A DNA stretch of 64,000 nucleotides from Azolla caroliniana (Eukaryota; Plantae; Polypodiophyta). Below, piece after piece: positions 1 to 32,504 of the stretch. A program made the position numbers and the translations under genes. The DNA lies in the NCBI GenBank assembly GCA_043228905.1, contig JBHGNT010000015.1:17112001-17176000 (forward strand). The letters run 5' to 3'. The notes under the pieces were generated by a model that had not been told where the DNA came from, searched no databases, and worked only from the letters and a program-made list of their open reading frames with translations. Within the stretch, counting starts at the first letter, position 1, and every line of letters begins with the position of its first letter.

Positions 1-613
1 TCTCCAAACAATCTTGAAGAAGATCGTCAACAAGAACCGCACTGATTGGGATGACAAGCTCCAGAGTGCACTATGGGCTTATCGCACTACATTCAAAACG
101 AGCATTCAATCCACCCCCTTTCGGATGGCTTTTGGTCTCGAAGCCGTTATGCCCATCGAGTTCCAAGTTCCGAGTATCCGAGTTCAAGTTAAAACATGGC
201 TCCCCGAGGCCCAATCCAAACAATTGAGGCTAGAACAACTCCTCGAACTTGGCGAGGACCGAGTAGCGAGCATGGCCCAACTTGAACAACGCCAACGACA
301 ACGGAAAGCCTTTGTGGACCGACATCGGAAAGGATTGGAACAATAACTGACCATAGGCAAACCGGTCCTCGTTTTCCAGACGCGACTCGGTGCTATGCCA
401 GGAAAGTTATGATTTCGATGGACCGGCCCCTTTTGGATTATTGACGAGTTTAACGGCACGTTCCAGCTCGGCACCCCCGCCGGGGAAATTGTCAAAAGCT
501 GGGTGAATGGATTCCGACTGCGACCGTACCAGGGAAATACCCCAGCCAACCCTTTCGCCGAGTCTCACGGCACGGACAATGCCACGAAGGAGGCCACACG
601 TCCCCCTCGGTAA
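1..613 (+). pseudogene. Gypsy integrase C-terminus (Athila/Tat-like), with in-frame stops
   Basis: [31 protein letters not shown]; the frame continues past the stop at 344-346 into PGKL*FRWTGPF...VNGFRLRPY (GPY/F motif); no chromodomain. Confidence 0.9.
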
Positions 614-1143
614 GAACCCACCAACATTCCAAAGTAGACATTAGGTAGGATTAGGCATAATTTTAGCAATTAGTTAGTTCCACCTACACCACCTACCACA
701 TCACCCAAATCATGTCATGTTTAGAGGCACACATTAGTCACTTTCACATTAACTTAAGTATTTAAAGGCACATGCACAACATCCAAGGCAAAGCACTAAC
801 TCCCTAGGACACGTGGCCATAAGATCCTATTATGGCATCCACGCCCAAGAATCTCCAGGCTCCTCTTCATGCACAAAACCCTAGGCGTCCGCTAAAAAAT
901 AGTTACCCCAAGCCCACCCCACACACAGACGTTTTCTTGCACACCCAGCTTTCATCGCTCCTACGCTCTCAAGCATCCTCTCGCTCTCAGCGCTTTCATC
1001 GCTCCCACTGCTCTTGCTCACAAGCCCGCTCTTGTCCTCGTAGCCCCTCTGCCGCACCACAACCATCTCCTTCCCTTGCTCTGTCTCGGCTTGGTCGAAT
1101 TCTCCTTCCCGAATCTTCCACACAACAGAACCCCGAGTCCATT

Positions 1144-4100
1144 ATGCCTCTTGCAGCTTCACAGGAAACCTGCTCCCGGCTTCAGGAACGAGGATTGGGT
1201 GGTTATTTAAAGGTGATTGATGCCCCTACACACCTTGATGCCCAAGCGGTCGCACGCCGAATTCACCCGGACACAGTCACCAACAATATGATTTGTGTTG
1301 CCTTGGACCTGAAGCGAAGAGGTGATCATGAAGTCGAGATTCCCCCTTCCACGACCCTGAAGGAATACTTTGATGCGTATTCCATATCTGGTAAAGCCTA
1401 TCGCACCCACGGTGGATCCAACAAGGCATTCGGAGAACTCGCTCGCATCCTGATGGAGTACGCGTTCGTGCATACCAACCCTACAAGTATGCCACAGAGC
1501 AAAACGACGATCATTATCAGTGCCTACGAGGGAAACAAAATCGATTGGGGAATCATCACATGCGAAGGAATCCGTGCGGCGCTTGAATCCTTCCAAACCG
1601 GTAAGCGTTTGTTGCATGTGATCAATCACTTCCTTATAGTCCTCTACCCACCTCCTTCAGTTTCCCCTCGTCGCATCCTGACCTCTCCACCTCCACCAAG
1701 GAAACAACGAGAGAAGATGTTGGAGATAACTCAGGAAGAATGGGAAGACCCCTCGTCTTCTCCACCTCCCTCAGGTGCTCGGAACCCCGCTTCCACCTCG
1801 GCCCCACCCCCACCAAAAACACAAAAACAACAGGCGGTAACAACAACCCGTGTCGAATGGGATGAGGCTGAGGAGGCCATCCCCGAGGATGTCACCATAC
1901 GCCAGAGGCCACTAAGGACATCAATGACCTCTCCACAACCGAGCCCACGGCCCACAAGCCAGCAACCCTTGGCCATCCGGTAGCAAAAGAGGAAATAGGC
2001 CGAGGAGCCAACACCACCGGCCCCGGACGCACAGGATCAGCCGTAAAAAAGACGCCGCATCATTCAAGAGGCAACCACAGAAACCGAAGGTGACCAACGT
2101 CAGAAATCAAAAGAGGCCAGCCCCACCTCCATGGACATAGTACCAGCGGAGTCATGGCTCCAAGTCGGTACGATCGAGCATGGACAAACCACGTAGATAT
2201 CAGAGGAGGAAGTCCTCGGTTACAAAGATCTCCTCGCGGAGGCATACAAGTTCAGTGCACTACTTCGACTGGGCACAACTTACGAGTTAATGGATTTCCT
2301 CGTGCGCGCCCAAGTAGTTGCCGCCGCTCGTATGGCCGAGGAGCACGCCGAAACAAAGATGATTCAACGCGCTCTAACGGGTGAAATCGAACCTCACAAG
2401 GATTGAGCCTTATAGAAGATAGGATGGAAGAAGCAAGTACAAAATGCTTCACTCATGGAACTACCGGATCTGAACATGGCCTTAGTCGAGGCATATCGCA
2501 ATCTACACCACACTACTCGGGCAGCCAAGGACATGGCCCGACGTATCAAAACGGCGCATCAGCAAGCCAAACGGGCTACCGACCTATGGCAAGCCACCGA
2601 GGAGAAATTGGCGACATTCACACAACAACAACCGCCCTTAATCCTCCCTGCGCTGAGTGACGCTATCTCACCAGCCACTCTTCCGAACCCGAGCCCGAGT
2701 GTTGAAGGTACCGTCGCACACAAAGACGACACCGCCCACCCCAAGGTAGCCATGGTCGAGGCCAGCACAATGACGGACTCGATACAGACAAGTGAGTCAT
2801 CATCACGGGCAGATATCAGCCCTCACCCCCAAACCAACCAAGCCTCCACGCAAACGCCACCACCTCCGGTCGTCATGGAACGAGTGACACAGACAAACAA
2901 GGAGTCCTCGGCCCAAATCCAGCAAGCGACAACCCAGACAGGGCCTCCTCTTAGGGACTACCAAGAGGAGCTTCAGGCCCAGATCGCTCTGGTCGAGTTG
3001 GCAGAACAGAACCACAACAACATTCTTGGCTAGCAACGGGAACAAGCCGCGAGCCGCGAAGCGAACCTCAAGTGATTGTTTGTTGAAAGGTTGGTCGCGC
3101 TTGAAGCATGAGAACGAGAGGTGATGACCCTCCAGGTCTCTATCACTGAGGCTAAAGAACGTTTCATCAAAGAAACCGATTGGAATAGCCAACGGGAACA
3201 AGAGCTCTTCGCAGACAACCAGGAATTACGACGTCATCAAAGAGCCTTCCAGGACATGGCCAACGAACATATGCAAAAGTGGAGGATCTCGGAGGAGCAA
3301 TGAGCGAAAATTTCCGATGCATATCACCAATTGCAAACTGAGCATATCGCCGTCAAAGAACAACACCGGGACGCTTGGCGATAGGAAAGGGACGGAACTG
3401 TAGCTCAGCTCACCAACTGTTATGAGCAGACCATCGCGCTCATCACTGAAAAAGCAAAAGATAATCAAGCTACTTTAGCACTCTTCGCCCGCAAAAGCCA
3501 AGCAGAAGCTAAGGCCGCAAGGGAGGCACTGGAAGTTCACCGCGCGAGCATCGGCATGGACGATACCAAAATCAAGACCCTAATCCACAAGTATTGCCAA
3601 CAATTCACCACGAAGATCAAAGAAATGCTTGACCATGTCTGGCAGGGGTGGTCAGCCCAAGCCGCAGACCTACACATACTATGCGCGGATGCCGAGAACC
3701 GACGGAAGGAGGGCCGAGGGTTTTACAAGATGGATGACACCAGCATCCAGACCCTCCGTGAAGACTTAACGGAAGAATATCATACCTTGGCAATCTCCCA
3801 CACCACGGCCATTGAGCAACTCTTGGAGGAATTCAACGACGATCTAATGGTGTTTCGTTTAGAAGCCGAAGTGTACGAGGAGGAACGAATCGCTACTAGG
3901 AGACATAGAGCTCCCACAACCACTGAGCCAGGAACTGAGTCACTCCCCACGGCAACCCGACCGGAAGAACCTTCCCCTATCGACCCTCACATCCCACCAG
4001 AGCCAAAGACTATAACCCCGGCCCTATCTGAATCGGTCCCAACAGAAGAGGGCACACACGACGACACTGCCATCCCCAACTCGGCAACACAACCTCCATC

Positions 4101-4176
4101 ACCAACCCCACCTGCCGAGCAGCAAACCCAACCCCACACCCCCGAGGATATCCTCGGCATATTGGAAGAGGAATAA
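1144..4176 (+). pseudogene. Extra ~1010-codon ORF downstream of pol (globular N-terminal domain, Pro/Thr-rich linkers, coiled-coil-like C-terminal part)
   Basis: ORFs 832-1983, 2455-3033, 3121-3303 and 3556-4176 share one frame; I count 11 point stops and no frameshift; the N-terminal YEGNKIDWG motif resembles plant retroelement accessory ORFs; start codon uncertain (832 or 1144). Confidence 0.75.
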
Positions 4177-4273
4177 AACCAACCTATAAGCCCTCGCAGG
4201 AACGGGCAATTTTTGTAATTCGTGTTGTTTTGCCACATCCATGGGGAACCGTGGGTCTGACGGACAAAGTCTT

Positions 4274-4290
4274 GTCCCACGGGCGTGCCA
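4274..4290 (-). promoter_or_regulatory. tRNA-Arg-type primer-binding site in inverted orientation, at the expected PPT position
   Basis: + strand GTCCCACGGGCGTGCCA = minus TGGCACGCCCGTGGGAC, matching the Tat/Ogre-type tRNA-Arg PBS TGGCACGCCCAGTGGGAC with a 1-nt gap; lies 2 nt from a TG. Confidence 0.7.
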
Positions 4291-4292
4291 GG

Positions 4293-4788
4293 TGTTGTCC
4301 ATAGGCCAAAAATATAAATTAGTTAAATATAATACGCCAGTAGGTAAGGCGAATAGGTAAGGTAGAGTTAGGTAAACGCCGAGTTTCAAGCCTCACAGTC
4401 AGCCGACCACTCGGCTCTGTATGAAGAAAAAGTATATAAACTGAGGTCTGTGTACCTCGGCAGGAGAGATATCTAAAGCGTAGGTGAGGTCGTTTTATAG
4501 TTATAAGAGCTTGTAGGGTCACCGGCTGTGGGTCGTGTTTTTTGTAATCATCGATAACTGTTTGCAGGAATACATATCTAGTAGCTCTTGTTGTTTTCAT
4601 CTGTGTGCCGTCGTTTCTAAGGTCTCAACTACGTATACGACCTGGGCTCTATTCCGGGTATGCTCTCTGTTTTCTTCCCCTAACGGCGCCTCCGTGCACA
4701 AGTCTTCACGTTACACTTCTCTTGATACCGTTAGCTTGTAGGCATATCGAAGGTGTTTCCAACAGAACGGTTAACAGCCGCGTTGACA
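4293..4788 (+). repeat. Probable 3' LTR of the Athila/Tat-like element
   Basis: TGT...ACA termini, TATATAAA at ~4433, TGTAA/AATACA signals, pyrimidine-rich 3' half; the left boundary could also be 4273 or 4296. Confidence 0.65.
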
Positions 4789-6716
4789 AGCAACCGATTC
4801 TTCCTTTCGGCCACACCGTTTTGCTCCGGTGTGTATCTGCAGCTGAACTCTCTCCGAATTCCTGTTTGCTGCAGATAACCGTTGAATTGGCTGGAAAAAT
4901 ATTCTTTTCCGCCATATGACTGCAGGCACTTGATCTTCCTCTCCGATTCCCGTTCCACCATGCTTTGGAGGTTCCGGAAATAGTCGAAGACTTTGCTCTT
5001 CCGCTCAATGAGGTAGATCCATGTGTGCCGACTATAATCGTCGATGAAGGAGACGAAGTATCGACGCCCACCAAGACTCACGTTTTGTGCCGGTCCCCAT
5101 ACATCCGAATGAATAAGGTCGAGCTTGTTACAACTATGGTTTTGTTCGATGGGGAATGGAAGCCGATGTTGCTTCCCGAGTTGGCAGGTTTCACATACTT
5201 GGGCCTTCTGGCCACTAAACTTCGGCAAACCGAAAACAACTTGTTTCGTTTGCAAGTCTTGAAGCTGTCGGTAATTGACGTGGCTGATCCGCTTGTGCCA
5301 CAGGTCGATGTCCGATTCGACCTTCTGTCCTTTGGCGAACAAAGCGGTGCCGACGTCATTGGTGTCGAGGATGAACATCCTCCCATCTTTGCGCCCTTGC
5401 GCGATAATCTGGCCCTTTTCCTCGATGAAGCACCTGAGGTGCGTAAACTGCACCTGCATTCCCTGGTCGACGATCTGTCTGACCGACACCAGGTTCTTCG
5501 TGATAGTTGGAACGTGTAATACGTTCATCAGCTTCCCCCTCTGTCCGACGTGGCTCAGGGGAACTTCTCCGACATGCATGATTGGGTGAGGAGTGTCGTC
5601 TCCGGTTTCGACAACTCCCGGTTGTTCCGGTTTCTCCAAGAAGGAGAACCACTCTTTGTGGCTCGTCATGTGATTTGACACACCGGAATCAACGTACCAC
5701 ACTTCCTCCGATTTGGAAGTGGTCTTCTTCATCGAGTTTGCCTCGTGCTTCATCACCAAGGTTGGTCCCTTACCGGCCTTTCCGGTTTTGGATCCTCCCG
5801 ATCCTTTTGCGTAGTGCGAGTATTGCTGGTTCTCCCGACCGGTTCTCCCGGATCCGGATCTTTCCTAATCGGCGCGCTTCTTCCAGCACTCGCTTTCTCT
5901 ATGGCCCTTTTTACCACAGTACCAACATTCCATGGTGGATTTTTCTTGCCTGCTTCCGGCACCGCCTTGACTCCCCCTGGTTGTGGAGGTCCCGGAACTA
6001 CTGTCGGCACGGTCTCTGTGCCGATGGTCTTGCCCTTGCCGGCCGCCTCCATTGCGTGCCGACCCGCCTCGTCCACCACGCCCACGGGGATGATCTGCCT
6101 CCGTGTACAACATTCGGCAGTTGGTGGGTGCACTTGTTGACGCACCGGTGTGGTTCTCCTCTACAAGGAGCATCGACTGTAAGTCAAAAAAAGACAGCGT
6201 ATTCTCCCTCATGCAAATTGCCGTTCGGAAAGCTCCGAACTTGGACGCTAGCCCACCAAGGCACACTTGCACCATCTCGTCCTCCTCGACGTTTACATTG
6301 ACGGAGGCGAGTGAGTCACAAATTTCCTTGATTCGGGCCGTGTAATCGGCCACAGACAGACTTTTCTGTCGGACATTGTTGAGCTCCTGCCTGAGCTGCA
6401 GTTTCTTGGCCGTTGTGCTTGCGGCGAAAACCTTCTTCAGGTTTCCCCAAGCTTCTTTTGGCGTCTTCGCATCTCGGATATGGCTCAACAGCTGGTCTCT
6501 GACACTAGACGCAAAGCAGTACATCACTCTGCTTGCCGATTGTTCCCACACTGGGAAGTCCTTGTGTGCCGCATCAGGTGCTGTGTCGTTAGCTCCATCG
6601 ACATAGCTCCAGTACCCATGCCCAAGCAGGTACTAGTGCATCTTGTAAGACCAAGATGCGTAGTTGGTTCTGTCGAGCTTCTCCACCGGGAGCGAGCTAG
6701 CCATTCCTCTATCCAT
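4789..6716 (-). pseudogene. Copia gag-protease-integrase polyprotein with in-frame stops
   Basis: Zinc knuckle CWYCGKKGHRESEC, protease WYVDSGVSNHMT, LWHKRISH...CETCQLGK, HSDVWGP, YTPEQNGVAERKNR. Confidence 0.9.
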
Positions 6717-7229
6717 TTTGCTTTTCCTGTTCTTTACGAAAGTTTTCCTTTCAAGCTATGTCGGCTGTAGAGGTTCTCAACCCTCGCGCTGTGATACCAT
6801 GTAAAAACAAATAGCGTGCAGAAGTAATAAAAACAAAAAACAAAAAACAGAGAACAGGTTTAATTGAGAGCTTAACTGTACGCGGGAGAGACAGAGAGAG
6901 TGAGAAACAAGAATCTCTATTCAAAAATTATATCAACACTCTGTACATCGTATGTGTTCAGCGAACACTTTTATACAAGTCCATACGGACTGACAGAAGT
7001 ACGGTGTACTTCAATGCGCACTCGAGCGTCTGACACTAACTACGAGAGTAATAACTCCCTAGTAGTCTAGCTGCTACTAGGCTTCCGATTACTGATGGAT
7101 CCGGCTAACCGGCTCCCCAGCTCACCGGCTCTTTTGCTCACCAGGTGCTCACCGACTCACCGATCCGTCTCGCTCACCGGCTCAGGCTTATCCAGCCGAT
7201 CCGGCTCCAATTGAGCTTGCCGCTCAACA
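4789..7229 (-). mobile_element. Ty1/Copia element, 5' half (LTR 6800-7229, PBS-Met 6788-6799), interrupted in integrase by the Gypsy insertion
   Basis: Minus strand TGTTGAGCGG...TTTTACA followed by TGGTATCACAGC; gag-PR-INT order. Confidence 0.9.
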
Positions 7230-8387
7230 CAACTCAAATGAGCCTTTTGACTCTTGTGGGCCTTTGACTCTAAATAAAAAGAAATAAATAACAAAAACAT
7301 TCAAACACAAGCCATGTTCGAACATAATCAACATTGGGATGATGTGTTTAAATTTTGTCACACCCCTCACAAATACTGCATGCAAAAATAGTTGCACAGA
7401 GGGTAGAACATCTAGCCTCGCCCATCTATATAGAGGATGGTTGACACATGGAGGGGTGCCAAATATCAATCTCAACAACAACCTCGTATGCCGCACACCT
7501 CCTGAAGTCACAACCAATGAACCATCGACGTTGTTGTGTATACACGCGTGTGTATGCTACTTGAGTGGGACCATGTGGTTCTTGGACTAGGGATTCAAAA
7601 GGGAAGAGGAAGTTGAAGATTTGCTTTTGTCAACTTGGCGAGCCTCTTTTGTCGATCTTAGCTCATCGATCTCATCTCATCAACATCTCCCTCGTTGACC
7701 AAAGTCTTGTCACATGAGGCACGACGACACATGCAAGAAAATGACTCGTGCACGAAATGGAGATTAACACGTAACTAATAGCTAAACATATTAAGAACAA
7801 AAGTGATGGTTTAACAACAAATCTTTGAATAGATTAGGGCTTAAGAGCCACAATAAGGAATTACAATGGTAGTAGCTTCAAGTAAATCACAAGCTCAACA
7901 TAGGTAAGGACAATAAGAGGGGCAATATAGTGTACACTCTTGTAGCCCAACCAATGCTCTATGCAAACACCGAAGATGACACCATCCAAATTGAATAATC
8001 TCGTAGAAGGAGAGGAAGATGGTGTCAAGCAATGAGCACCGAGCGCAATTACATGAGCACTGAACAATGAACACCAAATGATCAAACACAAATCACCAAC
8101 AACTCAAACACACGAAATACCGAAAGAATGAACACCAAACACAAACACACGAACCTCCAACAATGAAGAACAAGGAACCACCAATGATGCAAACACAAAA
8201 GGAGGAGGCCTTGACCATCACTACCATGAGACAATTCAAGAACTCAAGGTGGTTCAAAAAAGAAATAGAGTTATGAATGACACAACAAATGAAAAATGGA
8301 CAAGTACAATCAATAATCACTAGCATCGATGCAACACTTTCTAAGAGGAAGTCGACTTACACCAACCTACAACAAACACTCACACTC

Positions 8388-8842
8388 TGTTACGGGCATG
8401 ACCATTTAATATCCCGTGGTGAGAATTTACCGTAGTATTCTATACATGTGGATAAGTGTGAGGGTTAAACGAGAGTGAAAAGAAGGGGAGGATTACTTTT
8501 AATCCTCGAGATTGAGACAACCCATTAGGTCAAGTGTGAACTTGCTTGGGGGCCTTGGGTATCGCTATAAATAAGAGGCCTAGCTACCCTCATTTGATCA
8601 TCTTTTGACTACATCGAGACTTTGCTCTTGTGGTGGGTCAACTCTTGTAGCGAGCGCGCCAGCACTAGGTACGACTCGATGCCACGACGGTGGTATGGGA
8701 CGCCGATCGAGGCTCGATTCCGTCTCGATCCCTTCGCTCGGGGGTGGTCGGGTGGATCAGCACCCTTCTTTCTCTTTCTCCTTTCTATCTATCATTTGTT
8801 TATCCTTATCTTAAGCTTACTTTAGTACTTAGATCTCTAATA
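8388..8842 (+). repeat. 5' LTR of the Met-primed chromovirus
   Basis: Direct repeat of 15227-15681; CTATAAATA box at ~8565; termini TG...TA. Confidence 0.95.
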
Positions 8843-10534
8843 TTTGGTATCAGATTTATGTACTAATGTTTCTTTGTTTTTCATTTGTCGTTTGATTGAT
8901 GGTGATCGATCGATGTGCGGTCGGCCTTGATCCAGACAACGATCAACAAAGAACTTCGATAACTCTTTCCAGAATTTTTTTTCTATTCTCTCTTCTCCCA
9001 TCTAATCATGTGTTTAGTTTATATGTCATTTTTTTTCATTAAGTCAATGATGTCGTAGTGGTCTTTAATTGATTATCTAAAACGTTTACATATGTGCACG
9101 AGGTCAATACCTCGTTTGACATATTAATAATATGTGATGAGCGTCGTATGCGTACGAGGTTAATACCTCAATTACGTATTACGTTCACGAACATATGTTA
9201 CGTTTGCGTATGAGTTTAATACCTTGATTTGTTGTAAACAATATGTGGTTGGTCTCGTATGCGTAAGAGGTCAATACCTCAATTGCGTATTACGATGATC
9301 TCTTATTTGTGGATGTTTCGTGTGCGTAGAGGTATATACCTCGATTACATATCTCGATCATATCATTTGTGGCTATTTAATATAACGATATGTTTAATAT
9401 AGGCATATGTGGTCACATATATACGTATTTGATCGTATATATGTGATAAGTAAACATATGTGTATATTCGTTATTACGTGATTATATCGAAAGTTGTCCT
9501 TGTCGGGAAAAGGATGTTGGTGGCCGTCCTCACATTTTTGTGAGAATGGCGTTGTCACCATTCCTTTTTCAACAATTTTTAATTGTTGATAACCCCGTTG
9601 ATGACCTCGATTTCGTTACGTAAAGAAACGCCAATAGCCATAATGATGTTGAGTACGTAGGGCTTGACCTACTTCAAGTGAGGTCGCTCCAATGACGCAC
9701 GTATCCAACATCCCTCCCTCGTTACATAGATACGATGCCACCATGAGCTCGTTCTTACGAGAGGCATTCGTAATGACGTGACCATGTGATGGCCCACGTG
9801 AGCCTACTACGAAACGAGGGCTCATTTGGCTTGACCATTAGGTTGCACTTTGGCGTATGCCATCGTAATTACGAGACTTGAGGTTAGGTAACGTACTGGT
9901 AACATAGTTTTGGTAAATGAGGGCGAAATAAGGACCCTTGACATATATGTTCTTTTAAAAAAAACATATATGATCAATTGCCTCGCATATCTCTTATACG
10001 CATCAAACATTAAGCATTCGAGAAGAGCAACTTACTTGGTTGGCTCAAGTGTTTAATGTATTTGTTCTCGAGGTCTCGAGTTCAAATATGACCAAGACCA
10101 TACAACATCCTTGATACATATGACTATAACACATGTTTAGACTTAAGGTCTAAGTGCACCTCGGGGTCCTCGTAATAGGACTTAAAGAGCCGAAACCACA
10201 TATGTGGGCACCGAAACATAGTTTATTGTTAACATTTTTTTCGTCTATAAACTATTCATGACGCGAACATACATGGTTGAGCCTCGAGGAGCCACCATGA
10301 AAAAATCGATATAGAGATCAGGGAAAGACATTTATTTGTCACCCCCATGGTTTTTAAAACACCTTTGTGTTACCATAGTAACCTGATCTTGAACCTCATC
10401 TCATACGTCTAGAGGGGTATTGACGTGAGATCATGATATCGATTAATGTTTGCCCATGATATGTTTACATCACGACATGATGTTATGACTATCTCTCTGA
10501 CCTTATCCTATTTCTTTTCCAGAAATAATCTTTA

Positions 10535-13500
10535 ATGGCTCAAATTAACGATCCGATGTCATCCGCTCAAGCGGAAGGAACTCAAGGGAATCCTCCTGGA
10601 CAAATGTCCACTGAGATGTATTTGGCACAAATAACCCAATACCTTAGTTTCACCGCTCAGCAGATGACCGAACTTCGGCAATCTCAAAGTGCTCTCGAGG
10701 CATGTGTCATTAGTCTACAACGTGAGACTAATAGAACTGATGAGCGACAAGGTGAACCATCATTTGTCGTTAAGCCATTTACGGGAGACAAAAAGGAAAG
10801 AACTGAAGAAGCAATCTGCACATGGCTGGGACAATGGGAGTCTCATTTTATCTGCACATGGCTGGGACGATGGGAGTCTCATTTTGAGCTCTATCCCACG
10901 CCAGATAGTATGAAGATTGCATATGTCGGCCGAGAACTCGGGGGTAAGGCTGCCGCCTGGTGGCGTGGGCTCCGTACTATGGGGAAATTGCCCGATACCT
11001 GGACAGATTTTGTCACAGTTTTTAAGGGCCAATTTCTGCAACCTCCCTCTCGAACCGAGGCAGCACAAGCTTTAATGAACCTCTCTAGCAGGAAATTTTC
11101 CTCGCTAGAAGACTATGTTCACCATGCTAGAACCCAAATCCAAAAATCGGGTCTAGAAGGGGACAATTGGTTGATAGCTTGTTTTGTCAATGGCATCCCC
11201 AATTCGGACTATCACTGGATAGTGCACGATAAGGATCCAAAATCCTTCGAAGAGGCCGTTGAAATAGTTCTTCGCTATCAACGCACTTCGAAGAAGGACC
11301 ATAACAAACCCAACGAAGCGCCCGGGACTAAGCAGTCGCAATTTGTTGGGAAACGCAAGACACCCAACGAATTCCTGGATCGCGATTGTAAGCGACAACA
11401 TCCTTTTTGTGTATTCTGCAAAAAGAAGGGTCATACAAAAGATCAATGTCGAAAGCTCCAACGGAAAGAGCACGACAACAAAGCTAAAGCTGCAGACCAT
11501 AAAGGTCAGATTCCTAATGTCCTTCAGGTTTATACACATCATTTAAGTAATTGTCAATGTTCTTTCCCTCACTATGTATTGGGTCCCAATGATTTACTAC
11601 GTGCAAACGGGTATATCAATGGATCTCCCATACAATTTTTATTTGATTCGGGAAGCTCACACAATTTTGTGAATGATCGTTTGGTTCAGATATGGGGAAT
11701 CCAACCCACCGTAAGTGATCACACCTACACGATGCACTTGGCTGATGGAAGAGTACAATACATCAACGGGGCGATTCATTCATTAGGAATTTCTATTGAT
11801 ACTTATATAGAGGAAGTAGACTTCCATGAAATGAATCTTTGTACCACCGATGTAATACTGGGTTATCCCTAGTTTTATAATAAAAACTCTTCTTTATTTA
11901 TTGATTGGGTTCGTCATTCCATTTCTTTTGTACTGAACGATTGTACGCATTTTATTCAATGTGTAAAAAAACAATCCCTCTGGATTGTTTCCTCGTGTCC
12001 ATCAATATCCGAGTTGTCTTGTTCTACATTATTTTATTGTGTACTTGATCCGGACATTCACATTTACAATATCGATAATGTCCCGGTTCAATTAACATAT
12101 TTTGAACAACAACAACTTGATGAAATCTTAAATGATTTTCATGATGTTTTTCCAAGTGAACTACCTGATGGGTTACCTCCTAAACGTAATATAGACCATC
12201 GTATAGATATTGTACCTGGTGTTGCACCAATAAGTATACCTCTGTATCGCTTAAGTCGATCCGAAGAAGATGAGGTATCTAAGAAACTCAAGGACTATTT
12301 ACGAATGGGTTATATACGTTATAGTAAATCTCCATGGGGTGCACCAGTTCTCTTGGTTAAAAAGAAAGAGGGCACATGGCGTATGTGTATTAATTACCGA
12401 CTCTTGAATAAAGTGACGATCAAGAATTCGTACCCATTGACCCGGGCTGACGATCTAATTGACCGTCTCCAAGGAGCTCGGTATTTTACGAAACTTGATC
12501 TCCGTACTGGCTACCATCAAATACGAATAAGTGAGGATGATGTTCCTAAAACGGCATTTCGTACGCGCTATGGCCATTACGAGTTTTTGGTTATGCCTTT
12601 TGGTTCGACCAATGCTCCGGCTACTTTTCAACAAGAAATGAATGACATTTTCCGAGAACAACTTGGAAAATTTGTCGTTATTTTCTTGGATGATATTTTA
12701 GTTTATAGCCGTACATTACAAGAACATGCTAGACATGTCCGCTTTGTTTTACAAACATTGCGTGACAAACAGTTTTATGCAAAGATCTCAAAATGTGAGT
12801 TCTTCAAGAAATCAATTACTTATCTAGGACATCTCATAACCGAATGAGGAGTTGAAATTGATCCTTCTCGCATTGAGAAAATCAAGCTTTGGCCCACTCT
12901 TCGGAATATTCGAGAAGTTCGATCATTCCTTGGTTTTGTCGGGTTTTTGCGAAAGTCTCTTTGTAATTACTCCCAATTGACGACGCTGTTTACTGATCTT
13001 TTAAAAGGTCAAACGCGTAAGTCTACAAAACCTATTGTGTGGAATGCTACACTAGACCTCGCCTTTAAGGAACTCAAGGACCTGGTTTGCAAGGCTCCTT
13101 CACTTCTTTTACCTGATCCTTCAAAACCTTTTGAGGTTGAAACCGATGCAAGCAATTATGCTATAGGTGCTGTCTTGTATTAAGATGGTAAACCAATAAC
13201 ATTCGAGAGTAAGAAACTTGATTCTGCTCAATGTCGGTATACTGTTCAAGAAAAGGAATTATTTGCAGTTATACATGCGCTCAAAACATGGCGCCATTAT
13301 CTTTATGGAAATCGCTTTGTGGTAACTACGGACCACGAGTCCTTGAAATGTTTTTGTGACCAACAAGACCTGAAAGGTCGTAAGGCACGATGGGCTGATC
13401 TCATCCAGGACTTTGATTTTTCCATACGATATCGTAAAGGTTCCATGAACACTATCGCTGATGCACTAAGTCGCATCCGTGAAGTTAACATGCTTAGCTT

Positions 13501-15240
13501 CACTGAAATAACATCAGATCTTTATGATCACCTTCGAGGAAAGTATCTTGATGACAGTTATTTTGCAAAATACTGGGCAAGAGTTGAGTCTGGAACAGAC
13601 ACCACCACATCCTCGAAGGAATACTTCCACATTGCTAACGGTTTGCTCTACCGTAATGGGAAGGTTTGTGTTCCAGATTTACCCGAGGTCAAAAAGAGGA
13701 TTCTTTTTGAATTCCATGATGCACCCTTAGCAGGGCACCCTGGAATACATCGTACACTCGTTCTCATCTCCACTCAATTTTATTGGCCTAAGATGCGTCC
13801 TGACATACATAGCTATGTGACTAAATGTCACCAGTGTCAGGTTAACAAAGCCGAGCGACTTAAAGCCGCAGGACTTTTACATCCCTTGGATATTCCCAAT
13901 AATAAGTGGGAAAGTATATCCATGGATTTTATTGTTAGCCTTCCTCGCACCCAAAAAGGTCATGATGCCATCTGGGTTGTCGTTGATCGACTAACTAAAA
14001 TGGCCAAATTTATTGCTACTAAAACCACGGTAATAGCTCCTGAATTGGCTTACCAATTCGTTGATGAATTGTTTCGTTTTTATGGGTTACCGATGGATAT
14101 CGTGAGTGATCGAGATCCAAAGTTTACTAGTGACTTCTGGACGCAAGTATTTAAGAAGTTAGAAACTACGTTGAGCATGAGCTCCACGGATCATCCTCAA
14201 TCCGATGGACAGACAGAACGAGTAAATCAAATTATTGAGGACATGCTTCGAGCATACGTTGGTGCAAAACCAACAAAATGGGAACGTTATCTCCCAATTT
14301 TGGAGTTTGCTTATAACAGCTCCAAGCATACGTCGACGGGATATAGTCCTTTTATGTTGATGTATGGTTTTCAGCCACGAGCCCCGATTGATGTTAATAT
14401 ACATCATGATGAGTTGCAAAGTACGCAAAACTTTCTTCGGGATATGCAAGATATGTTGCATATTGCACGAGATAATATAAAAACAGCTCAAGATAGAGCG
14501 CGTTTTTATGCCGATCATCATAGGCAACCTTGTGTATTCAACCCTAGACAGAAGGTATCAAGCATACGTCGACGGGATATAGTCCTTTTATGTTGATGTA
14601 TGGTTTTCAGCCACGAGCCCCGATTGATGTTAATATACATCATGATGAGTTGCAAAGTACGCAAAACTTTCTTCGGGATATGCAAGATATGTTGCATATT
14701 GCACGAGATAATATAAAAACAGCTCAAGATAGAGCGCGTTTTTATGCCGATCATCATAGGCAACCTTGTGTATTCAACCCTGGACAGAAGGTATTTTTAC
14801 GTGTACCTCACAATTCTAAGACATTGTCTACGGGTAAGCGCGCTAAGTTAGCCCCACGGTTTTGTGGACCTTTTACAGTCCTCAAACGCATTGGGTCATC
14901 AGCCTATCGTCTCGCTCTTCCCAATGGTGTCGGAATTCATCCAGTCTTTCATGTGAGTCGTCTAAAAGAACTTCTAGGTTCTGGCGACAATACAATTACA
15001 ACTGAAACTCTGGTTACTTCTGAAGAATTATCTTCTAAACCACATGTACCAGAAAGAATTCTTGATGTTAAAACAAAAAAATTACGTACTAAAGAAATCC
15101 GAGAATTTAAAATAAAATGGATGGATAAATCAATAAAAGATGCCACATGGGAACGCGAAAATACTCTCAGAACTAATTTCCCTAACTTTCCATTGCAAGA
15201 GTGCAATGTTTTAAAGAGGGGGAGTATGTTACGGGCATGA
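10535..15240 (+). pseudogene. gag-pol polyprotein (Gag, CCHC, PR, RT, RNase H, INT, chromodomain), disrupted
   Basis: CVFCKKKGHTKDQC; LFDSGSSHNF; DLRTGYHQ and FLDDIL; ETDASNYAIGAVL; HPQSDGQTER; CGPF; PERILD...IKW...ATWE; several stops and a 236-bp duplication. Confidence 0.95.
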
Positions 15241-15681
15241 CCATTTAATATCCCGTGGTGAGAATTTACCGTAGTATTCTATACACGTGGATAAGTGTGA
15301 GGGTTAAACGAGAGTGTAAAGAAGGGGAGGATTACTTTTAATCCTCGGGATTGAGACAACCCATTAGGTCAAGTGTGAACTTGCCTGGGGGCCTTGGGTA
15401 TTGCTATAAATAAGAGGCCTAGCTACCCTCATTTGATCATCTTTTGACTACATCGAGACTCTGCTCTTGTGGTGGGTCAACTCTTGTAGCGAGCGCGCCA
15501 ACACCAGGTACGACTCGACGCCACGGCGGTGGTATGGGACGCCGATCGAGGCTCAAGTCCGTCTCGATCCCTTCGCTCGGGGGTGGTCGGGTGGATCGAC
15601 ACCCTTCTTTCTCTTTCTCCTTTCTATCTATCATTTGTTTATCCTTATCTTAAGCTTACTTTAGTACTTAGATCTCTAATA
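15227..15681 (+). repeat. 3' LTR of the Met-primed chromovirus
   Basis: Direct repeat of 8388-8842, preceded by the PPT and followed by TSD CACTC. Confidence 0.95.
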
Positions 15682-16185: not shown

Positions 16186-16875
16186 TGTTGAGCGAACAAG
16201 GTCAACTTGATCCGGATCGGTTTTTGGAACAAAGAACTAGATTAGTATTTGGAATGAAGAGTCGGATCGGATTATAACCTATAGGCCGTTAGAGGCCTAC
16301 GATCCTAGCCTAGTACATAGGCATATTTTTAGGAGCCAGTGTCAGTTGCTCTATACGAGCATTGAAGTACCTCTGTCAGTCCTTTAAGGACTTGTATAAA
16401 AGTGCTCACTGAGCACATTGTATGTATAGAGTATTGAATTAATTTTGAATTAGAGTTTATTGTTCTGTTGTCTTTGTCTCTCCCGCGTAATGTGTATTTT
16501 CAAGCTTCCATTAAACCTTCGTTTTGTTTTCTATTGCTATCTGGCTGAGCCAGTTGTGTACACGCTTCCGCACCATAACTTTTACATGGTATCAAAGCGC
16601 GACGGTTAGAACATCCTCTGTTGCCGACAAGAGCTTTCGACACAAACCAAGATCTAACACTTGGTAAGAACAGACAAGGAAAGAAATGGAAAGAGGAATG
16701 GCTAGCTCGCTTCTGACGAAGAAGCTCGATAGAAGCAACTACGCATATTGGTCTTACAAGATGCACCAGTACCTACTCGGACATGGATATTGGAGTTATG
16801 TCGATGGAGCTAATGATGCAACACCAGATGCGACACACAGGGACTTTCCGGCTTGGGAACAAGTGGCAATTAGGT
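16186..16875 (+). mobile_element. Copia 5' LTR (16186-16586), PBS-Met and gag start (16686), related to the element at 4789-7229
   Basis: TGTTGAGCG...TTTTACA-TGGTATCAAAGC; MERGMASSLLTKKLDRSNYAYWSYKMHQYLLGHGYW matches the gag starting at 6716. Confidence 0.9.
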
Positions 16876-24817: not shown

Positions 24818-26275
24818 TGCTTCATCGACACATATCTTGACACTTCACTGATTGTTGACAACTTTCAATGTGAAATTTATGAATTTGCAAAATAGAGGAC
24901 AATAGATTTTCCTATTAGCAATAGTAGGGCCACAAATTCCTTTCATTTAATATGATACATGTTGCTCTCAATTTTCTTCAATATGATAAAAATCAATTTG
25001 GTATTGGAGAGAAGAAGTTATTGAAAGAGATTATGAAAAAGTTGCAAGTCATGGACTATTCTATCTAAGAATTTGATCTACATTGATTTATTAATGTTTC
25101 TTTAAATGTCAAATATTTGGCATTTACAGCAATATTCAAGGACTCAACTACCTACAGGTGCGAAGAAATGCAATATAGAAAGAACTACTAAGCATGTCCA
25201 TAAAACAAAAGAATGTTCATGTTTCAAGCTTGGCACAAATGAGCTATGTATAAGAAGACTTTGCTAAAAGCTTAAGGATTGCCCTGAACATTCTCCCCAG
25301 AGTATTGGGTTGATCCTTAACACTTCTTGAAGCGCATCAAAAAGTTATGGATCAACAAGCTTACATGCATGATTCACATCTGACATTTGATAATGATTCT
25401 TATGAGCATTTAATTTAACAAAAAAGTAGTCATATAGTTTACATCTTAACTTGGTGTTGTGCATCCTTCAACATTAAATCACTCGGTGCAGATGCAATGC
25501 AGATGCAATCCAGCGTGTCTTATAATAATCTAGCTTATGTTCAAGCCTTCTATGGCTAGGACATTCACTCAACACTAAACCATAAGATTATATGAAAGAG
25601 TAGTTATACAAAAAAGATTATTGGTGATCTTTAAACTTGGGAAATTTTGACCAGGTAACTCTATTGGACTCTTAAACCCCAAAATACAAGTTGACAGTTG
25701 ATTTTTAGATATGCGGCTGTAAGAACGGGTCCACATCAATAGGTTTTTGAAACGTGTTTTTGGAAGAGCAAAGCTTGAGTTGTATCTAGCATATGGTTAT
25801 TTTTCCATTCAGCCATCTAATTTTATTGAGCAGTATTCACTCATGATCACTGATGAATTACACATTCTCTTTAGAAATATTGGCTCCATATGTGATTAAA
25901 TTAATATATTGTATTATCTTATTTTTCATATGATCAGCTACCAACTTGTATTTTGGGGTTTAAGAATCCAATAGAGTTACTATCATGATATGGCAAGACT
26001 CGAACCCATGACCTTAGGTTATATGGGTTGAGCTCTTGACCATTAGATCATCTATTGTAATACATAGTATATTATTTTCATTTATATTTTATTATAGGAA
26101 ATTAGTGTATATTCCAGATTTCTCTGGAACATTCTAGAAGCTTCAGGATTACTCCTGAAAACACTATAAAAGAGGGCACTAGGCATTATGTTGAACCAAA
26201 TTGGTTCAACGCCAGTCTTAAGCCTTTTAGCCACCATTGTATATTCTCTTCATATAATACATATCTTTCTTATCA

Positions 26276-26317
<42 letters not shown>

Positions 26318-26424
26318 TGTCTCGCTCACTTCTTCCTTCTCTCGAAGAAGTTCCACACCTCTCATAGTACTAATCCTTCGTTTAGTACTAATTCCTTCTC
26401 TGTCTCAGTACTGTTCATGACAGT

Positions 26425-26436
26425 TTGAACCAATTT
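26425..26436 (+). promoter_or_regulatory. Self-priming PBS
   Basis: TTGAACCAATTT is the exact reverse complement of AAATTGGTTCAA at 26198-26209, ~33 nt after TATAAAA (26165). Confidence 0.85.
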
Positions 26437-26496
26437 TCCCTACCTTTTGTCTCTCTCATTTCCTACTAATCTTTTATTCCTCTTTTCTTTCATTCC

Positions 26497-29400
26497 ATGG
26501 CCACTGTTAGCGCTGAAGAATATCAATCTGTTTTCTCGGAATTTCAATGCTTGAAGGAGAAGTTCCATGCTTTGGAACAAGAAAACCAACGGTTGTTGGG
26601 TGATCTTCAGCAAATCTCCTTAGAAAAGCAGCAACGCAACAACAACATGGGGAACTTGCGTTACGCGTGCAACAACTCGAAGCAACCATCGTTGCGATGC
26701 AACAACAAGGGCCCGGAACACAAGGGATTCATAAAGAACCCAAGATTGGCCTTCCCACGAAGTTCGATGGAACATGATCGCAGTTTAGAGGGTTCCTTAA
26801 CCAGGTACGATTAGTTATTCAAATGCATCCTTCCCGATATCCCACCGATGCATCACGAGTGGGTTTAGTAGGCACTTTGTAAAGTGGCTCAGCGTTGTCA
26901 TGGTTCGCTCCACTATTAGAAAAGGAATCTCCATTACTCAACAATTTTGAAGAGTTTCTAGGTGAGTTTAAAGCATGTTTCGGAGATACTGACAGCATCG
27001 GGACCGCAATCAACAAAATCCGGCGATTACGTCAAGGTGACCGTCCAGCCTCCGCATACGCTGCAAATTTTCGCCTACTCACCACCGATATCCCTTGGGA
27101 TGATCAAGCGTTGATGGAGCAATTCCGTTATGGTTTACGCAACGACGTCAAGGATTTACTATTGACCTTCCCCGAAGAGACAAAGTCCTTAACAGAAGCA
27201 ATCAGTCGCGCGGTGAGATGTGACAACCGCCTCTTTGAGCGACGTTCGGAACGACAGCTACAGATGCCGAGGACAAGATTAGAGCCCACCTACGCCTCAG
27301 TGGTAGCAAGACCTTTTCCGAGGGAGTCATATAATGCGCCTCCAGCGAATACTCCAACTCCGATGGAGATTGACACTACACGTCGTCGAGGGCCATTATC
27401 CGAAGAAGAAAAGCAACGACGCCGTACAAATCGACTATGTCTTTACTGCGGTGGACGAGGACATATCGCAATAAATTTCCCCCATAGGCCAAGAAGACAG
27501 GTAAACCAAATAGTCGCTAGTTCTAATTGTACTAAATCTGAGCCTATTTCAGTAGGGATATCTGATAGTCCTAATAGTACTAATATCCCAGATCTAGCAA
27601 ACAAATTTGATGTCCTTAGTCAGTTAGAAGAAGAGTTAAACGACTAAGTCCAACCAAACGGCAGCCCTAGATCTGTGCAACCCATTAGTGGTTCCATTCC
27701 CTCTAAGCAAGTTAGTGATGTGTTCGTAGCCCAAGTAATAGTTAGTACTAAAAGTACCCCTCCAGTACATGTCCTAGCACTCCTAGATTCCGGAGCTAAC
27801 TCTTGCTTTATGGATAAGAAATTTGCTCAAACTCATAAGATATCCCTAAGAAAACTCCAGTGTCCAACCTCTGTAGTAGTCATTGATGGACGTCCCACTG
27901 CTTCCGGAAATATCATAGAAGAGTTAGAGCCCATTAATATTGTCCTAGATAACTTAGCATGTGTAGTATCATTTAATATTATTAGTATCCCAGAACATCC
28001 TATAGTTTTAGGATTACCGTGGTTCGAGTTACATAACCTAGACATAGATTGGAGAACAAGAGAAATCCGGTGTCGACAAACCCAAGGGTCAACTCAGAAG
28101 ATGGCAACCATTTCGCTACGTCAATTGCGTAAAGAAGGGCGCAAGGAGGAAATGTTCCTCTTTGCAATATCAGTAAACCCCTCCAGCACCACTAAAGAAG
28201 AATCCACCGCTCAACTTCCCGAGAAGTATCGCCATTACGCCGATGTGTTCGATAAAGTACAAGCCAACACACTTCCTCATCATCGACCGTACGATTGCCC
28301 CATCGATTTACAACTGGGAAAAGAGCCGCCATGGGGACCGATCTACAATTTGTCACCAACCGAGCTGGAAGTCCTTCGGGCCTATATAGAGGAGAATTTG
28401 GAAAATGGTTTCATTCGGCATTCGAAATCTCCAGCCGGCGCGCCCATTTTCTTCGTAAAAAAAAAAGATGGATCGCTTCGTCTCGTTGTAGATTACCGTG
28501 GCTTGAATAAGGTTACAATCAGGAATAGGTATGCTCTTCCCCTTATCTCAAGTCTTTTAGAACGGATCAATGGTGCCAGGTTCTTCATGAAGATCGACTT
28601 ACGGGGAGCATATAACCTCGTACGGATCCGACCAGGAGACGAATGGAAGACCGCGTTTCGCACCAGATATGGGCACTTCGAGTATAGGGTCATGCCGTTC
28701 GGCCTCACTAATGCGCCGACAGTCTTCCAGCACATGGCTAATGATATATTCCGAGATCTATTGGATGATTGTTTGATCATCTATTTGGATGATCTACTGG
28801 TTTATTCAAAGACCCAAGAAGAACATGATTCTCATGTACTATTAGTACTAAAACGACTTCGAGAACATGGTCTGTATGCAAAGCTGGAAAAATGTAGTTT
28901 CGGGTGCAACCAAGTGGAATTTCTCAGCTACATCATTTCGTTAGAAGGCATCTCCATGGACCCAGCTAAGGTCAAAACAGTGGTAGAATGGCAGACTCCG
29001 CGTTCGGTGCGGGATGTGCAATGCTTCTTAGGCTTTGCCAATTTTTACCGGAAGTTCATACAAGATTACTCAAAGATCGTTCTACCTCTCACACAACTTA
29101 CCAGGAAGGGACAACCGTTCATCTGGTCTGAAGAAACGGACATGGCTTTCGAGAGTCTTAAAAAGGCATTTACATCGGCTCCAATTCTAGCTCATGTCGA
29201 TCCGGAAAAACCATTCATTATCGAAGCTGACGCATCGGATTTTGCATTGGGGAGCATTCTGTCACAACAGGGGAATGATGAGAGGCTACATCCTGTGGCT
29301 TTTCACTCACGCAAGTTTGACGCCGCCGAAATCAACTACGAAATTCATGATAAGGAGCTATTGGCAATAGTGGATTCTTTTATGCAATGGAGGCATTTTC

Positions 29401-31214
29401 TGGAGGGATCCTCTCATCCAGTCACCGTATTTAGTGACCACAAGAATCTTGCCTACTTTCAGGATGCTTGTGTATTGAATTGACGTCAAGCTCAGTGGGC
29501 CCACTTCCTCACGCGTTTCGACTTCAAAATTACATATCGTCCGGGGAGGCACCAAGGGAAGGCAGATGCATTATCACGGCATTCGTATCTAGCACCCCGT
29601 CTCGGTGAGCCAGCTTTCGATAACCAAAAACAAGTCATCTTGGGACCGACACGATTACAAGCAACACAGATCTTTGACATGCCTATGGATTCCCGCGTTA
29701 TTGATACCATACGTGAAGACTTGAAGACAGATGCGTTCGCCCAAGCTATACTAGCACAAATTGATCCCTCTCGAGCGTCGTGTTCACAGTCGCAACCACC
29801 AGGTACGGACTATCAGCAATTCAAATACCATGATGGATTACTCTTCTTTAAAGAACTTTTGTATGTTCCTAATGGTTCTTGCCGCCTTTGAGTAGTACAA
29901 AACTGTCATGACACATATACAGCTGGGCATTTTGGTAGTACTAAAACATTACATTTAGTACAACGAACATTCTGGTGGCCCTGTATGCGACAATTTGTCG
30001 AGGATTTTGTTCGGACTTGTGATACATATTGCAGAGCGAAAATGCCAAGGCATCATCCATATGGTTTATTAGAACCATTACTAATTCCAAGCAAGCCGTG
30101 GCAATCCATTGCTCTAGACTTCATCACAGATCTTCCAGTCTCTAAGGGGTTCAATGCGATTCTAGCGGTGGTCGATCGATATACGAAGATGGCTCATTTC
30201 TTGCCATGTACTAAGGAGATTTCCAGTGAAGACACTGCCGAAATTGTCATGCGTGAAGTATGTCGGCATCATGAACTTCCCGATAGTATCATCAGCGACC
30301 GTGGACCCCAGTTCGTGTCAAAATTCTGGAAGCACCTTTTTAACATGCTCAATGTCACTTGGAACCTCTCCTTCGGCTACCACCCACAAACCGACGGCCA
30401 AGCTGAACGAACAAATCAAATGTTGGAGCAGTATCTGCGGTGCTTTCTTAGCTATCATCAAGATGACTGGGCAGATATTCTCCACTTCGCCGAATTTGCC
30501 TATAACAACTCTATCCACGCATCCACTAAAGTTACGCCATTTTATGCTTATACGGGATGTCACCCCCGGTGGAGTGTACTTGAAACCCCAGAGGTGTCCA
30601 CAAATCCGTGCGCGGAGGATCGTTTGGAGCAGTTACGCAAGATACAAGCGGATTTATCTACTCATCTCCAACAAGCTCAACAAACACACAAGGTCTACGC
30701 GGATCGTCATCGACTTCCATCCAGTTTTAATATTGAAGATCGGGTGTGGCTGCTACGACGACACATCAAGACTACTCGTCCATGTGAGAAGTTAGATTAT
30801 CGGCGATTAGGTCCTTTCCGTATTATTCGACAGATTAATGATGTTGCTTTTCGTCTCGATCTACCTCCTCAACTTCGGATACATCCGGTGTTTCATAGTT
30901 CTCTCCTCGAACCCTACCACGAGAGCACCATCCCAGGACGTCTTATCCAACCTCCACCCCCGATCGAGCTTGAAGATGGGCCGGAGTACGAGGTTGCCGC
31001 CATCCTTGATTCCAAGATTGTTCGCAACAAGCTCTACTATCTAGTCGATTGGCTAGGCTATAGCCACAACGAACGTACTTGGGAACCGATTGAGTATGTG
31101 ACCAATGCTCGTGCTCTTCTTGAAGACTTCCATCGTCAATATCCACACAAACCAGGTCCTCAATCCAAGACGACTCGTGACACTCGTCGTTTTAAAGGGG
31201 GGATAGTGTCATGA
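26497..31214 (+). pseudogene. gag-pol polyprotein (PEG10/sushi-like Gag, PR, RT, RNase H, INT, group I chromodomain), disrupted
   Basis: PMEID...LCLYCGGRGH; LLDSGANSCF; IYLDDLL; EADASDFALG; HPQTDGQAER; YEVAAILD...YLVDWLGY...TWEP; one gag frameshift and several stops. Confidence 0.95.
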
Positions 31215-31759
31215 TATGGCAAGACTCGAACCCATGACCTTAGGTTATATGGGTCGAGCTCTTGACCATTAGATCATCTATTGTAATACGTAGGATATTA
31301 TTTTCATTTACATTTTATTATAGGAAATTAGTGTATATTCCGGATTTCTCTGGAACATTCTAGAAGCTTCAGGATTACTCCTAAAAACACTATAAAAGAG
31401 GGCACTAGGCATTATGTTGAACCAAATTGGTTCAACGCCAGTCTTAAGCCTTTTAGCCACCATTGTATATTCTCTTCATATAATACATATCTTTCTTATC
31501 ATCACTCTCTCTCTCTCTCTCTCTCTCTCTCGATCTCTCTCTTTCTCTCTGTCTCGCTCACTTCTTCCTTCTCTCGAAGAAGTTCCACACCTCTCATAGT
31601 ACTAATCCTTCGTTTAGTACTAATTCCTTCTCTATCTCAGTACTGTTCATGACAGTTACCTGGCCAAATTTTTTGCAAGTTTAAAGATCACCAATAATCT
31701 TTTTCTTAGAATCTTTGGACGGGTGCTCTAATCATGTTCATAGTATAAATCAATGGAAG

Positions 31760-32431: not shown

Positions 32432-32504
32432 TTCCATTATCGGGAGTTCAACCCGGGTCTCTCGGGTGAGAGCCGAGTATCCTAACCAACTAATCTACAA
32501 TGGA
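32432..32504 (-). pseudogene. tRNA-Glu(CTC) pseudogene
   Basis: Minus TCCATTGTAGATTAGTTGGTTAGGATACTCGGCTCTCACCCGAGAGACCCGGGTTGAACTCCCGATAATGGAA; anticodon arm intact, T-loop mutated (TTGAACT), no oligo-T terminator. Confidence 0.85.

What the first reader, a model, noticed from the sequence alone, without database searches (positions are those of the whole stretch)
4240..4300. tRNA 3'-end copy (inverted PBS) in place of the polypurine tract: possible dual tRNA priming
Seen: integrase and the extra ORF run on +, and the LTR looks + oriented, yet no purine tract precedes it. Instead GTCCCACGGGCGTGCCA lies 2 nt before TG, with PBS-like spacing. Known: this matches the 3' end, including CCA, of the tRNA-Arg used by Tat/Ogre elements, and plus-strand synthesis is normally primed from a PPT. 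Inference: either a tRNA anneals to minus-strand cDNA to prime the plus strand, or the coding region is inverted relative to the LTR/PBS. Both would be non-canonical replication. Caveats: the LTR left edge is not confirmed by a second copy, and a TATA-like string also exists on the minus strand (~4495).
Basis: partly seen in the sequence, partly recalled or inferred. Interest (0 to 1): 0.8.

Follow-up and report, generated by a model that had tools for sequence, protein, structure and literature searches.

The report
tRNA-end copy replaces polypurine tract
A group of plant jumping-gene families has no purine tract where the second DNA strand normally starts and carries there a conserved copy of the end of an arginine tRNA split by a small hairpin, so a host tRNA likely starts the second strand as well as the first, a route I found in no paper searched.

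Summary
Confirmed and extended. The 17-mer at 4274-4290 lies 2 nt before a 484-bp LTR (4293-4776) of a decayed Ty3/gypsy element nested in a Copia. It is part of a longer copy of the tRNA-Arg(UCU) 3' arm (positions 49-76, lacking C66), split after A58 by a 13-nt hairpin whose pairs covary. The junction recurs in 110 of 124 collection matches (about 24 LTR groups) and in runs under four organism labels. In 101 of 102 testable matches no purine run over 8 nt precedes the LTR. Siblings show LTR, sense PBS, sense gag-pol, extra ORF, tRNA copy, LTR, so inverted coding region and one-off chimera are rejected. In 8 loci the same site precedes an LTR followed by a different PBS, which argues against PBS/anti-PBS pairing. 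Best reading (0.6, inferred): tRNA-Arg anneals to minus-strand DNA and primes the plus strand. Main rival (0.27): the element's own tRNA-like RNA piece primes. No priming was observed. Not Tat/Ogre: no archaeal RNase H. The scan reported this before in at least eight other pieces of this genome. Ten literature searches found no description.

The parts
2..613 (+). C-terminal part of a Ty3/gypsy integrase, 2 in-frame stops; element continues beyond the window start
   Evidence: translation; 84-89% to the integrase tails of L059 and L004; stops counted
1144..4176 (+). Extra 3' forward ORF of about 1010 codons, 11 in-frame stops; open in siblings (1163-1179 codons stop to stop in L004, L058, L066); function not identified
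   Evidence: no Pfam family above cut-off
4251..4260 (+). Copy of tRNA-Arg(UCU) positions 49-58 (T arm), 8 of 10 identical here
4261..4273 (+). 13-nt insert between tRNA positions 58 and 59, holding a 4-bp hairpin with a 3-nt loop
   Evidence: 20 of 112 cells changed on both sides, 96.4% paired
4274..4290 (+). Copy of tRNA-Arg(UCU) 59-65 and 67-76 including CCA (C66 absent); reads as a primer binding site on the minus strand
4291..4292 (+). 2-nt spacer before the LTR
   Evidence: 2 nt in 99 and 4 nt in 11 of 110 related junctions
4293..4776 (+). 3' LTR, 484 bp, TGTT...AACA
4777..7230 (-). Copia element (gag, protease, integrase start) into whose integrase the element inserted; 4777-4781 is the expected target-site duplication, whose partner lies outside the window; right end approximate

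Best explanation
This is the 3' end of a Ty3/gypsy retrotransposon whose lineage has a tRNA-Arg(UCU) 3'-arm copy where the polypurine tract belongs, and a host tRNA likely anneals to that site on the new minus-strand DNA and primes the plus strand. Shown: architecture, conservation, absence of a purine tract, hairpin covariation, and independence from the element's own PBS. Inferred steps: (1) a tRNA at the sense PBS starts the minus strand as usual; (2) RNase H clears the RNA off the minus strand at the 3' site; (3) tRNA-Arg(UCU) pairs through 67-76, then 59-65 with C66 bulged, then 49-58 with the hairpin looped out at A58; (4) RT extends CCA through the 2-nt spacer into U3; (5) RNase H removes the tRNA and integrase trims the spacer.
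For: Site and spacing mirror a PBS and recur in 110 of 124 matches, about 24 LTR groups among 81 matches with enough LTR, and in runs under four organism labels. No purine run over 8 nt in 101 of 102. tRNA identity extends to 49-58, outside the search pattern (98 of 102 versus 31 of 1598 controls), whereas the inserted hairpin changes sequence freely while keeping its pairs. The hairpin interrupts the match just after A58, a position that as m1A58 cannot base-pair (PMC13191261, passages; the modification is assumed for this tRNA). Split pairing with the acceptor stem and T arm is how Ty1 and Ty3 bind their minus-strand primer (PMC5371799, section 2.1). Predicted duplex of tRNA 49-76 with the minus-strand site is -43 to -52 kcal/mol in 10 of 10 tested, against -28 to -39 at the PBS (RNA parameters, no unfolding cost). 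The site is unchanged in 8 loci whose LTR is followed by a different PBS.
Against: No priming intermediate was seen; only contigs were available. The same sequence folds on the element's own RNA into a T-arm-like hairpin with a CCA tail, which fits the rival as well. The 17-mer was the search pattern, so its invariance in the loci is circular and compensatory change in the outer stem could not be seen. The constant lack of C66 weakens tRNA pairing and is unexplained. No complete tRNA copy (with C66) before an LTR start, the expected trace of a tRNA primer, was listed. The 77 locus names I saw point to one series of assemblies for the plant-type loci, so these are not independent hosts. Motif-LTR-PBS contigs may be joined through the shared LTR by the assembler.
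Confidence: 0.6

Rival explanations
1. The element's own RNA is the primer: the tRNA-like hairpin with its CCA tail survives RNase H, is cut at or near CCA, and primes the plus strand as a PPT would.
For: The stretch folds as a hairpin followed by the tail in several families. T54 (62 of 65 distinct variants) and A58 (55 of 65) are kept, as in a T-loop. It needs no second tRNA, and loss of C66 costs nothing.
Against: Outer-stem pairs 49-50 are broken in 11 and 8 of 28 rows. No local partner for an acceptor stem: best duplexes in the 300 nt upstream are no better than shuffles (-12.6 versus -13.7 kcal/mol, 46 loci). Predicted folds differ among families. Identity to the host tRNA is kept where only structure should matter.
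Confidence: 0.27
2. The site pairs with the element's own PBS (circularisation, dimerisation or self-priming), or the tRNA still attached to the minus strand is moved to it, as the hepadnavirus primer moves from DR1 to DR2.
For: In this family PBS and site are complementary over 10-11 nt.
Against: Eight loci in three LTR groups keep the same site while the LTR is followed by a different PBS that pairs poorly with it. Likeness to tRNA 49-65 has no counterpart in the PBS. PBS pairing alone leaves the plus strand without a primer.
Confidence: 0.07
3. Coding region inverted relative to LTR/PBS, or a one-off chimera of two elements.
For: Read on the minus strand the junction looks like an LTR end plus PBS. 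One locus (L075) has an antisense hit to the extra ORF upstream.
Against: 41 of 45 matches with protein hits have the extra ORF upstream on the same strand. The other LTR end carries a sense PBS followed by sense gag. The junction is in hundreds of contigs.
Confidence: 0.02
4. The tRNA piece serves another purpose (Pol III B box as in Helenus, packaging signal, small-RNA target) and the plus strand starts from an unseen internal purine tract.
For: Positions 53-61 of a tRNA are the B box (recalled); Helenus carries tRNA-derived promoters (PMC10886601, passages).
Against: T55 is C in 25 of 65 variants and the insert breaks the box. An LTR's left edge is set by the plus-strand start, and the fixed 2-nt spacing ties CCA to that edge. 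Helenus keeps a PPT and has the tRNA piece inside the LTR.
Confidence: 0.04

Closest known systems
Ty3 of Saccharomyces cerevisiae (PMC5371799; passages and section 2.1 read)
   Same: gag-PR-RT-RH-INT order; tRNA primer bound through a split site that uses acceptor stem and T arm
   Different: Ty3's second PBS part is in the same sense as the PBS and helps the minus strand; its plus strand starts from a PPT. Here the tRNA site is on the opposite strand and no PPT is present.
Plant non-chromovirus Ty3/gypsy, OTA clade: Athila, Tat/Ogre/Retand (PMC6317226; passages and supplementary file 3 read)
   Same: No chromodomain; long extra ORF 3' of pol; tRNA-Arg PBS as in Ogre and TatIII; RT-RH 37-44% identical to angiosperm relatives
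   Different: No archaeal RNase H, so not Tat. PBS is Arg, while Athila uses Asp, Asn or Ala. Nearest named proteins are from Riccia, Marchantia and Adiantum (48-52%). The survey says most elements have a polypurine tract and, in the passages read, reports no inverted PBS.
Hepadnavirus plus-strand primer translocation to DR2 (PMC3039676; passages read)
   Same: Plus strand starts from an RNA annealed to a dedicated site on minus-strand DNA rather than from a PPT left in place
   Different: The primer there is the 5' remnant of the viral RNA, not a host tRNA; no LTRs and no integrase.
Helenus TRIMs (PMC10886601; abstract and passages read)
   Same: LTR retroelements with tRNA-derived sequence
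   Different: There the piece is inside the LTR, holds Pol III boxes, is stated not to prime, and a PPT is present.

Membership tests
Ty3/gypsy LTR retrotransposon | gag-PR-RT-RH-INT order | tested here: met
   L059 open frame: gag 36-126, zinc knuckle, RT 853-1012, RH 1074-1203, H2C2, rve 1384-1482; protease found by Pfam only in L051, below cut-off; L059 is 71% identical to window 1-2594
Ty3/gypsy LTR retrotransposon | LTRs with TG...CA ends | tested here: met
   4293-4776; same ends in siblings. The paired 5' LTR of this copy is outside the window.
Ty3/gypsy LTR retrotransposon | PBS behind the 5' LTR | tested here: met
   13-nt complement of tRNA-Arg(UCU) after a 5-nt spacer in L004, L017, L023, L033; loose end in run X3
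Ty3/gypsy LTR retrotransposon | Polypurine tract before the 3' LTR (usual, not diagnostic) | tested here: not met
   longest purine run 3-8 nt in 101 of 102; the exception is a GA microsatellite
Ty3/gypsy LTR retrotransposon | Target-site duplication | not testable with these tools
   no genome held; left end lies outside the window
OTA/Tat (TatI-III, Ogre, Retand) | Archaeal RNase H domain in the polyprotein | tested here: not met
   no such Pfam hit at E 0.05 in L059; RH-to-integrase linker only about 110 aa; L059 lacks the gag N-terminus, which L023 supplies without such a hit
OTA/Tat (Ogre, TatIII) | tRNA-Arg PBS | tested here: met
   PMC6317226 supplementary file 3
OTA/Athila | Clusters with Athila by RT-RH-INT phylogeny | tested here: inconclusive
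   quick tree of 46 rows: L059 lies in a 19-row group with Riccia, Marchantia and Adiantum proteins (SH-aLRT 95), beside an angiosperm plus pine group; no REXdb-labelled references were used and the careful search did not finish
OTA/Athila | PBS for tRNA-Asp, Asn or Ala | tested here: not met
   PBS matches tRNA-Arg(UCU) in this family
Chromovirus | Chromodomain at the integrase C-terminus | tested here: not met
   none in L059 or L004, while found in two other window elements
Phygy / Selgy | Short elements without extra ORF; tRNA-Trp or tRNA-Ala PBS; 4-bp TSD | tested here: not met
   3-kb extra ORF and Arg PBS; TSD not tested
Helenus (TRIMp3) | tRNA-derived sequence inside the LTR, PPT present, non-autonomous | tested here: not met
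   tRNA piece lies outside the LTR, no PPT, autonomous siblings

The most novel reading that the evidence does not exclude
A lineage of LTR retrotransposons in seed-free plants has replaced PPT priming altogether and starts both DNA strands from host tRNAs, in some families two different tRNAs, using a dedicated split tRNA site that exists only on the minus-strand DNA.
Probability: 0.55. Interest if true: 0.9.

Novelty: new variant of a known kind. Interest (0 to 1): 0.8.

Why it matters
PPT priming of the plus strand is described as shared by retroviruses and LTR retrotransposons (PMC5371799, PMC13191261, PMC10886601; passages). A multi-family lineage that lacks the PPT and keeps a structured tRNA end at that exact place implies another plus-strand primer under either leading model. 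It gives a short, testable substrate for how RT and RNase H choose primers and set the LTR edge. It also suggests that annotation tools that require a PPT would miss or misorient such elements (inference).

Tried and rejected
No genome was held, so this copy's 5' LTR and TSD were not seen. Self-comparison found no second LTR copy in the window. Protein-based locus searches in viral contigs and genome contigs found no relatives. Pattern scans there gave 0, 1 and 2 matches; the three were chance hits without element proteins. 14 of 124 matches lacked the LTR start and were left out. No RNA holder listed. Folding 4180-4310 as a whole is not better than shuffles (z -0.51). Variants within 4281-4290 were only G-to-A (4281, 4285), which would suit pairing on the minus strand, but both lie in CpG and the table omitted variants seen, so I do not count it. 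I first read L048 as the same 3' site on a very distant pol lineage; one search showed that pol to be a nested element with its own LTR and G-rich tract, so that claim is withdrawn. The tRNA for the second PBS type was not identified: no such gene in the 107 loci scanned, and PMC4724089 (one passage) discusses the same 10-mer as R or W. The atlas look-up of the extra ORF gave no result. Literature searches found no report of this arrangement; the library lacks most subscription papers and I did not search Repbase or GyDB.

Full report
Observation. The window is plant DNA dense in retrotransposons. Positions 2-613 encode a Ty3/gypsy integrase tail and 1144-4176 a decayed extra ORF, both on +. 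GTCCCACGGGCGTGCCA (4274-4290), GG and TGTTG follow. The motif is single in the window at up to 2 edits. No genome was held, so I used sequencing-run contigs and collection scans.

LTR edges. Laid on 4120-4860, contigs of the flanking Copia family leave before 4777, and LTR contigs end at 4776. Sibling LTRs align over 1-484 and end in TAACA. Contigs entering at 4292-4293 bring long, mutually unlike flanks (8 in X2, 16 and 7 in X13; agreement 0.41-0.49), as expected of 5' and solo LTRs. The LTR is 4293-4776 and sits in the integrase gene of a minus-strand Copia.

Not a one-off. 110 continue into an LTR-like start, with a 2-nt spacer in 99 and 4 nt in 11; 14 were left out. The 81 with 150 nt of LTR fall into 24 single-linkage groups. 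The junction is also held by runs under four organism labels from three studies (335, 414, 2 and 606 contigs laid). The plant-type loci whose names I saw share one assembly series, so host breadth rests mainly.

Orientation. Of 45 matches with a protein hit, 41 have the extra ORF upstream on the same strand, 1 has it antisense, and 3 have other hits only. L059 runs gag-pol (1701 aa, open), extra ORF, motif, LTR on one strand and is 71% identical to window 1-2594. In L004, L017, L023 and L033 the same LTR is followed by a 5-nt spacer and a sense PBS of 13 nt; in L023 a 740-aa gag frame follows and overlaps L059 at 85% over 2.2 kb. The element is therefore LTR, PBS, gag-pol, extra ORF, tRNA copy, LTR. 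The inverted-coding and chimera readings fail. These contigs may be joined through the LTR by the assembler, but each junction stands on its own.

No PPT. The longest purine run in the 60 nt before the LTR is 3-8 nt in 101 of 102 matches and 6 in the window; two chromoviruses in the window have 12- and 10-nt tracts.

What the site is. L002 holds a 76-nt tRNA-Arg(UCU) with CCA. Numbered back from its 3' end, the site is tRNA 49-58, an insert, 59-65, and 67-76 with C66 absent. The 49-58 part was not in my pattern, yet 98 of 102 matches share at least 7 of 10 bases with it, against 31 of 1598 control windows. The insert is 13 nt in 77 of 102. In the window plus 27 loci that I picked to span the families, its four pairs are 96.4% standard with 20 double changes; 0 of 500 shuffles reach this and slid controls pair 18-66%. 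Relatedness can inflate the shuffle test, but all four stem combinations occur.

A discriminating result. In 8 loci from three LTR groups (L009, L021, L048, L051; L041, L068; L012, L061) the LTR after the same site is followed by a different PBS; L051 goes on into a sense gag-pol. In 14 loci the PBS is of the window family's type. The 3' site is thus kept as a tRNA-Arg(UCU) copy whatever the element's own PBS, which argues against PBS/anti-PBS pairing and against reuse of the same primer. The second tRNA was not identified.

Mechanism. The left edge of an LTR is set by the plus-strand primer (established; PMC5371799 and PMC13191261, passages), so something must prime two bases before TG. I favour a tRNA-Arg annealed to the minus-strand DNA (0.6): tRNA sequence is kept where the insert shows structure alone allows drift, the break falls after A58, and split acceptor plus T-arm binding is known for Ty1 and Ty3. 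The element's own RNA also folds into a T-arm-like hairpin with a CCA tail, so a PPT-like RNA remnant remains a real rival (0.27). Against my reading: the invariant 17-mer was the search pattern, loss of C66 is unexplained, and no full tRNA copy before an LTR start was listed. Sequence alone does not separate the two.

Classification. Non-chromovirus Ty3/gypsy without archaeal RNase H, so not Tat/Ogre despite the Arg PBS. Nearest named proteins come from liverworts and a fern at 48-52%. A quick tree of 46 chosen rows groups it with these, beside angiosperm and pine relatives; no REXdb labels were used. 'Seed-free plant' is an inference from these neighbours.

Novelty. Ten searches found no description. 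Papers seen: PMC6317226 (passages, supplement search, supplementary file 3; its element table, Additional file 1, was not among the text I saw and could bear on PBS types), PMC5371799 (passages, section 2.1), PMC13191261, PMC10886601, PMC3039676, PMC3286476, PMC4724089 (passages). The scan had reported the same arrangement in at least eight other pieces of this genome. I saw those notes before analysing the loci; they shifted my prior and are not counted as evidence.

Verdict. Real, conserved across many families, and apparently undescribed in the literature searched; mechanism inferred. Interest 0.8; new variant of a known kind.

Noticed in passing
L002:843-1266: A whole mature tRNA-Arg(UCU) with CCA, antisense, joined directly to the 3' part of this family's extra ORF; likely a fossil of full read-through of the minus-strand primer followed by a template jump, though an assembly join is not excluded.
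   Followed up: partly
L004, L017, L023, L033 behind the LTR: PBS spacer is 5 nt in this family and about 7 nt in the L009 group, but 2 nt in others; in L004, L023 and L033 a short hairpin and a 5-nt complement of the tRNA T loop follow the PBS.
   Followed up: partly
L006, L011, L039, L052: Small elements of about 2.3-2.5 kb with no pol hit carry both the PBS and the 3' tRNA site; L006 and L039 look like tandem units.
   Followed up: partly
window 52757-63967 (-); L048:1-3750: Two nested or duplicated copies of a very divergent Ty3/gypsy lineage with DUF4100 gag, about 26% identical to L059 in RT-RH-INT and 60-65% to Riccia proteins; in L048 such an element has its own G-rich tract.
   Followed up: partly
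window 8388-15526 and 25978-31657 (+): Two chromoviruses with paired LTRs (97%) and ordinary purine tracts; used as controls.
   Followed up: partly
window 32432-32504 (-): tRNA-Glu(CTC) gene.
   Followed up: no
window 16367-16869 (+): Second Copia 5' end, 73% like the one at 6533-7002 and in opposite orientation.
   Followed up: no
L032:1062-1137 and 2756-2828: Two tRNA-Lys genes downstream of an LTR of this lineage.
   Followed up: no
window 36979-37370: AT-rich tandem array of 9-11-nt units.
   Followed up: no
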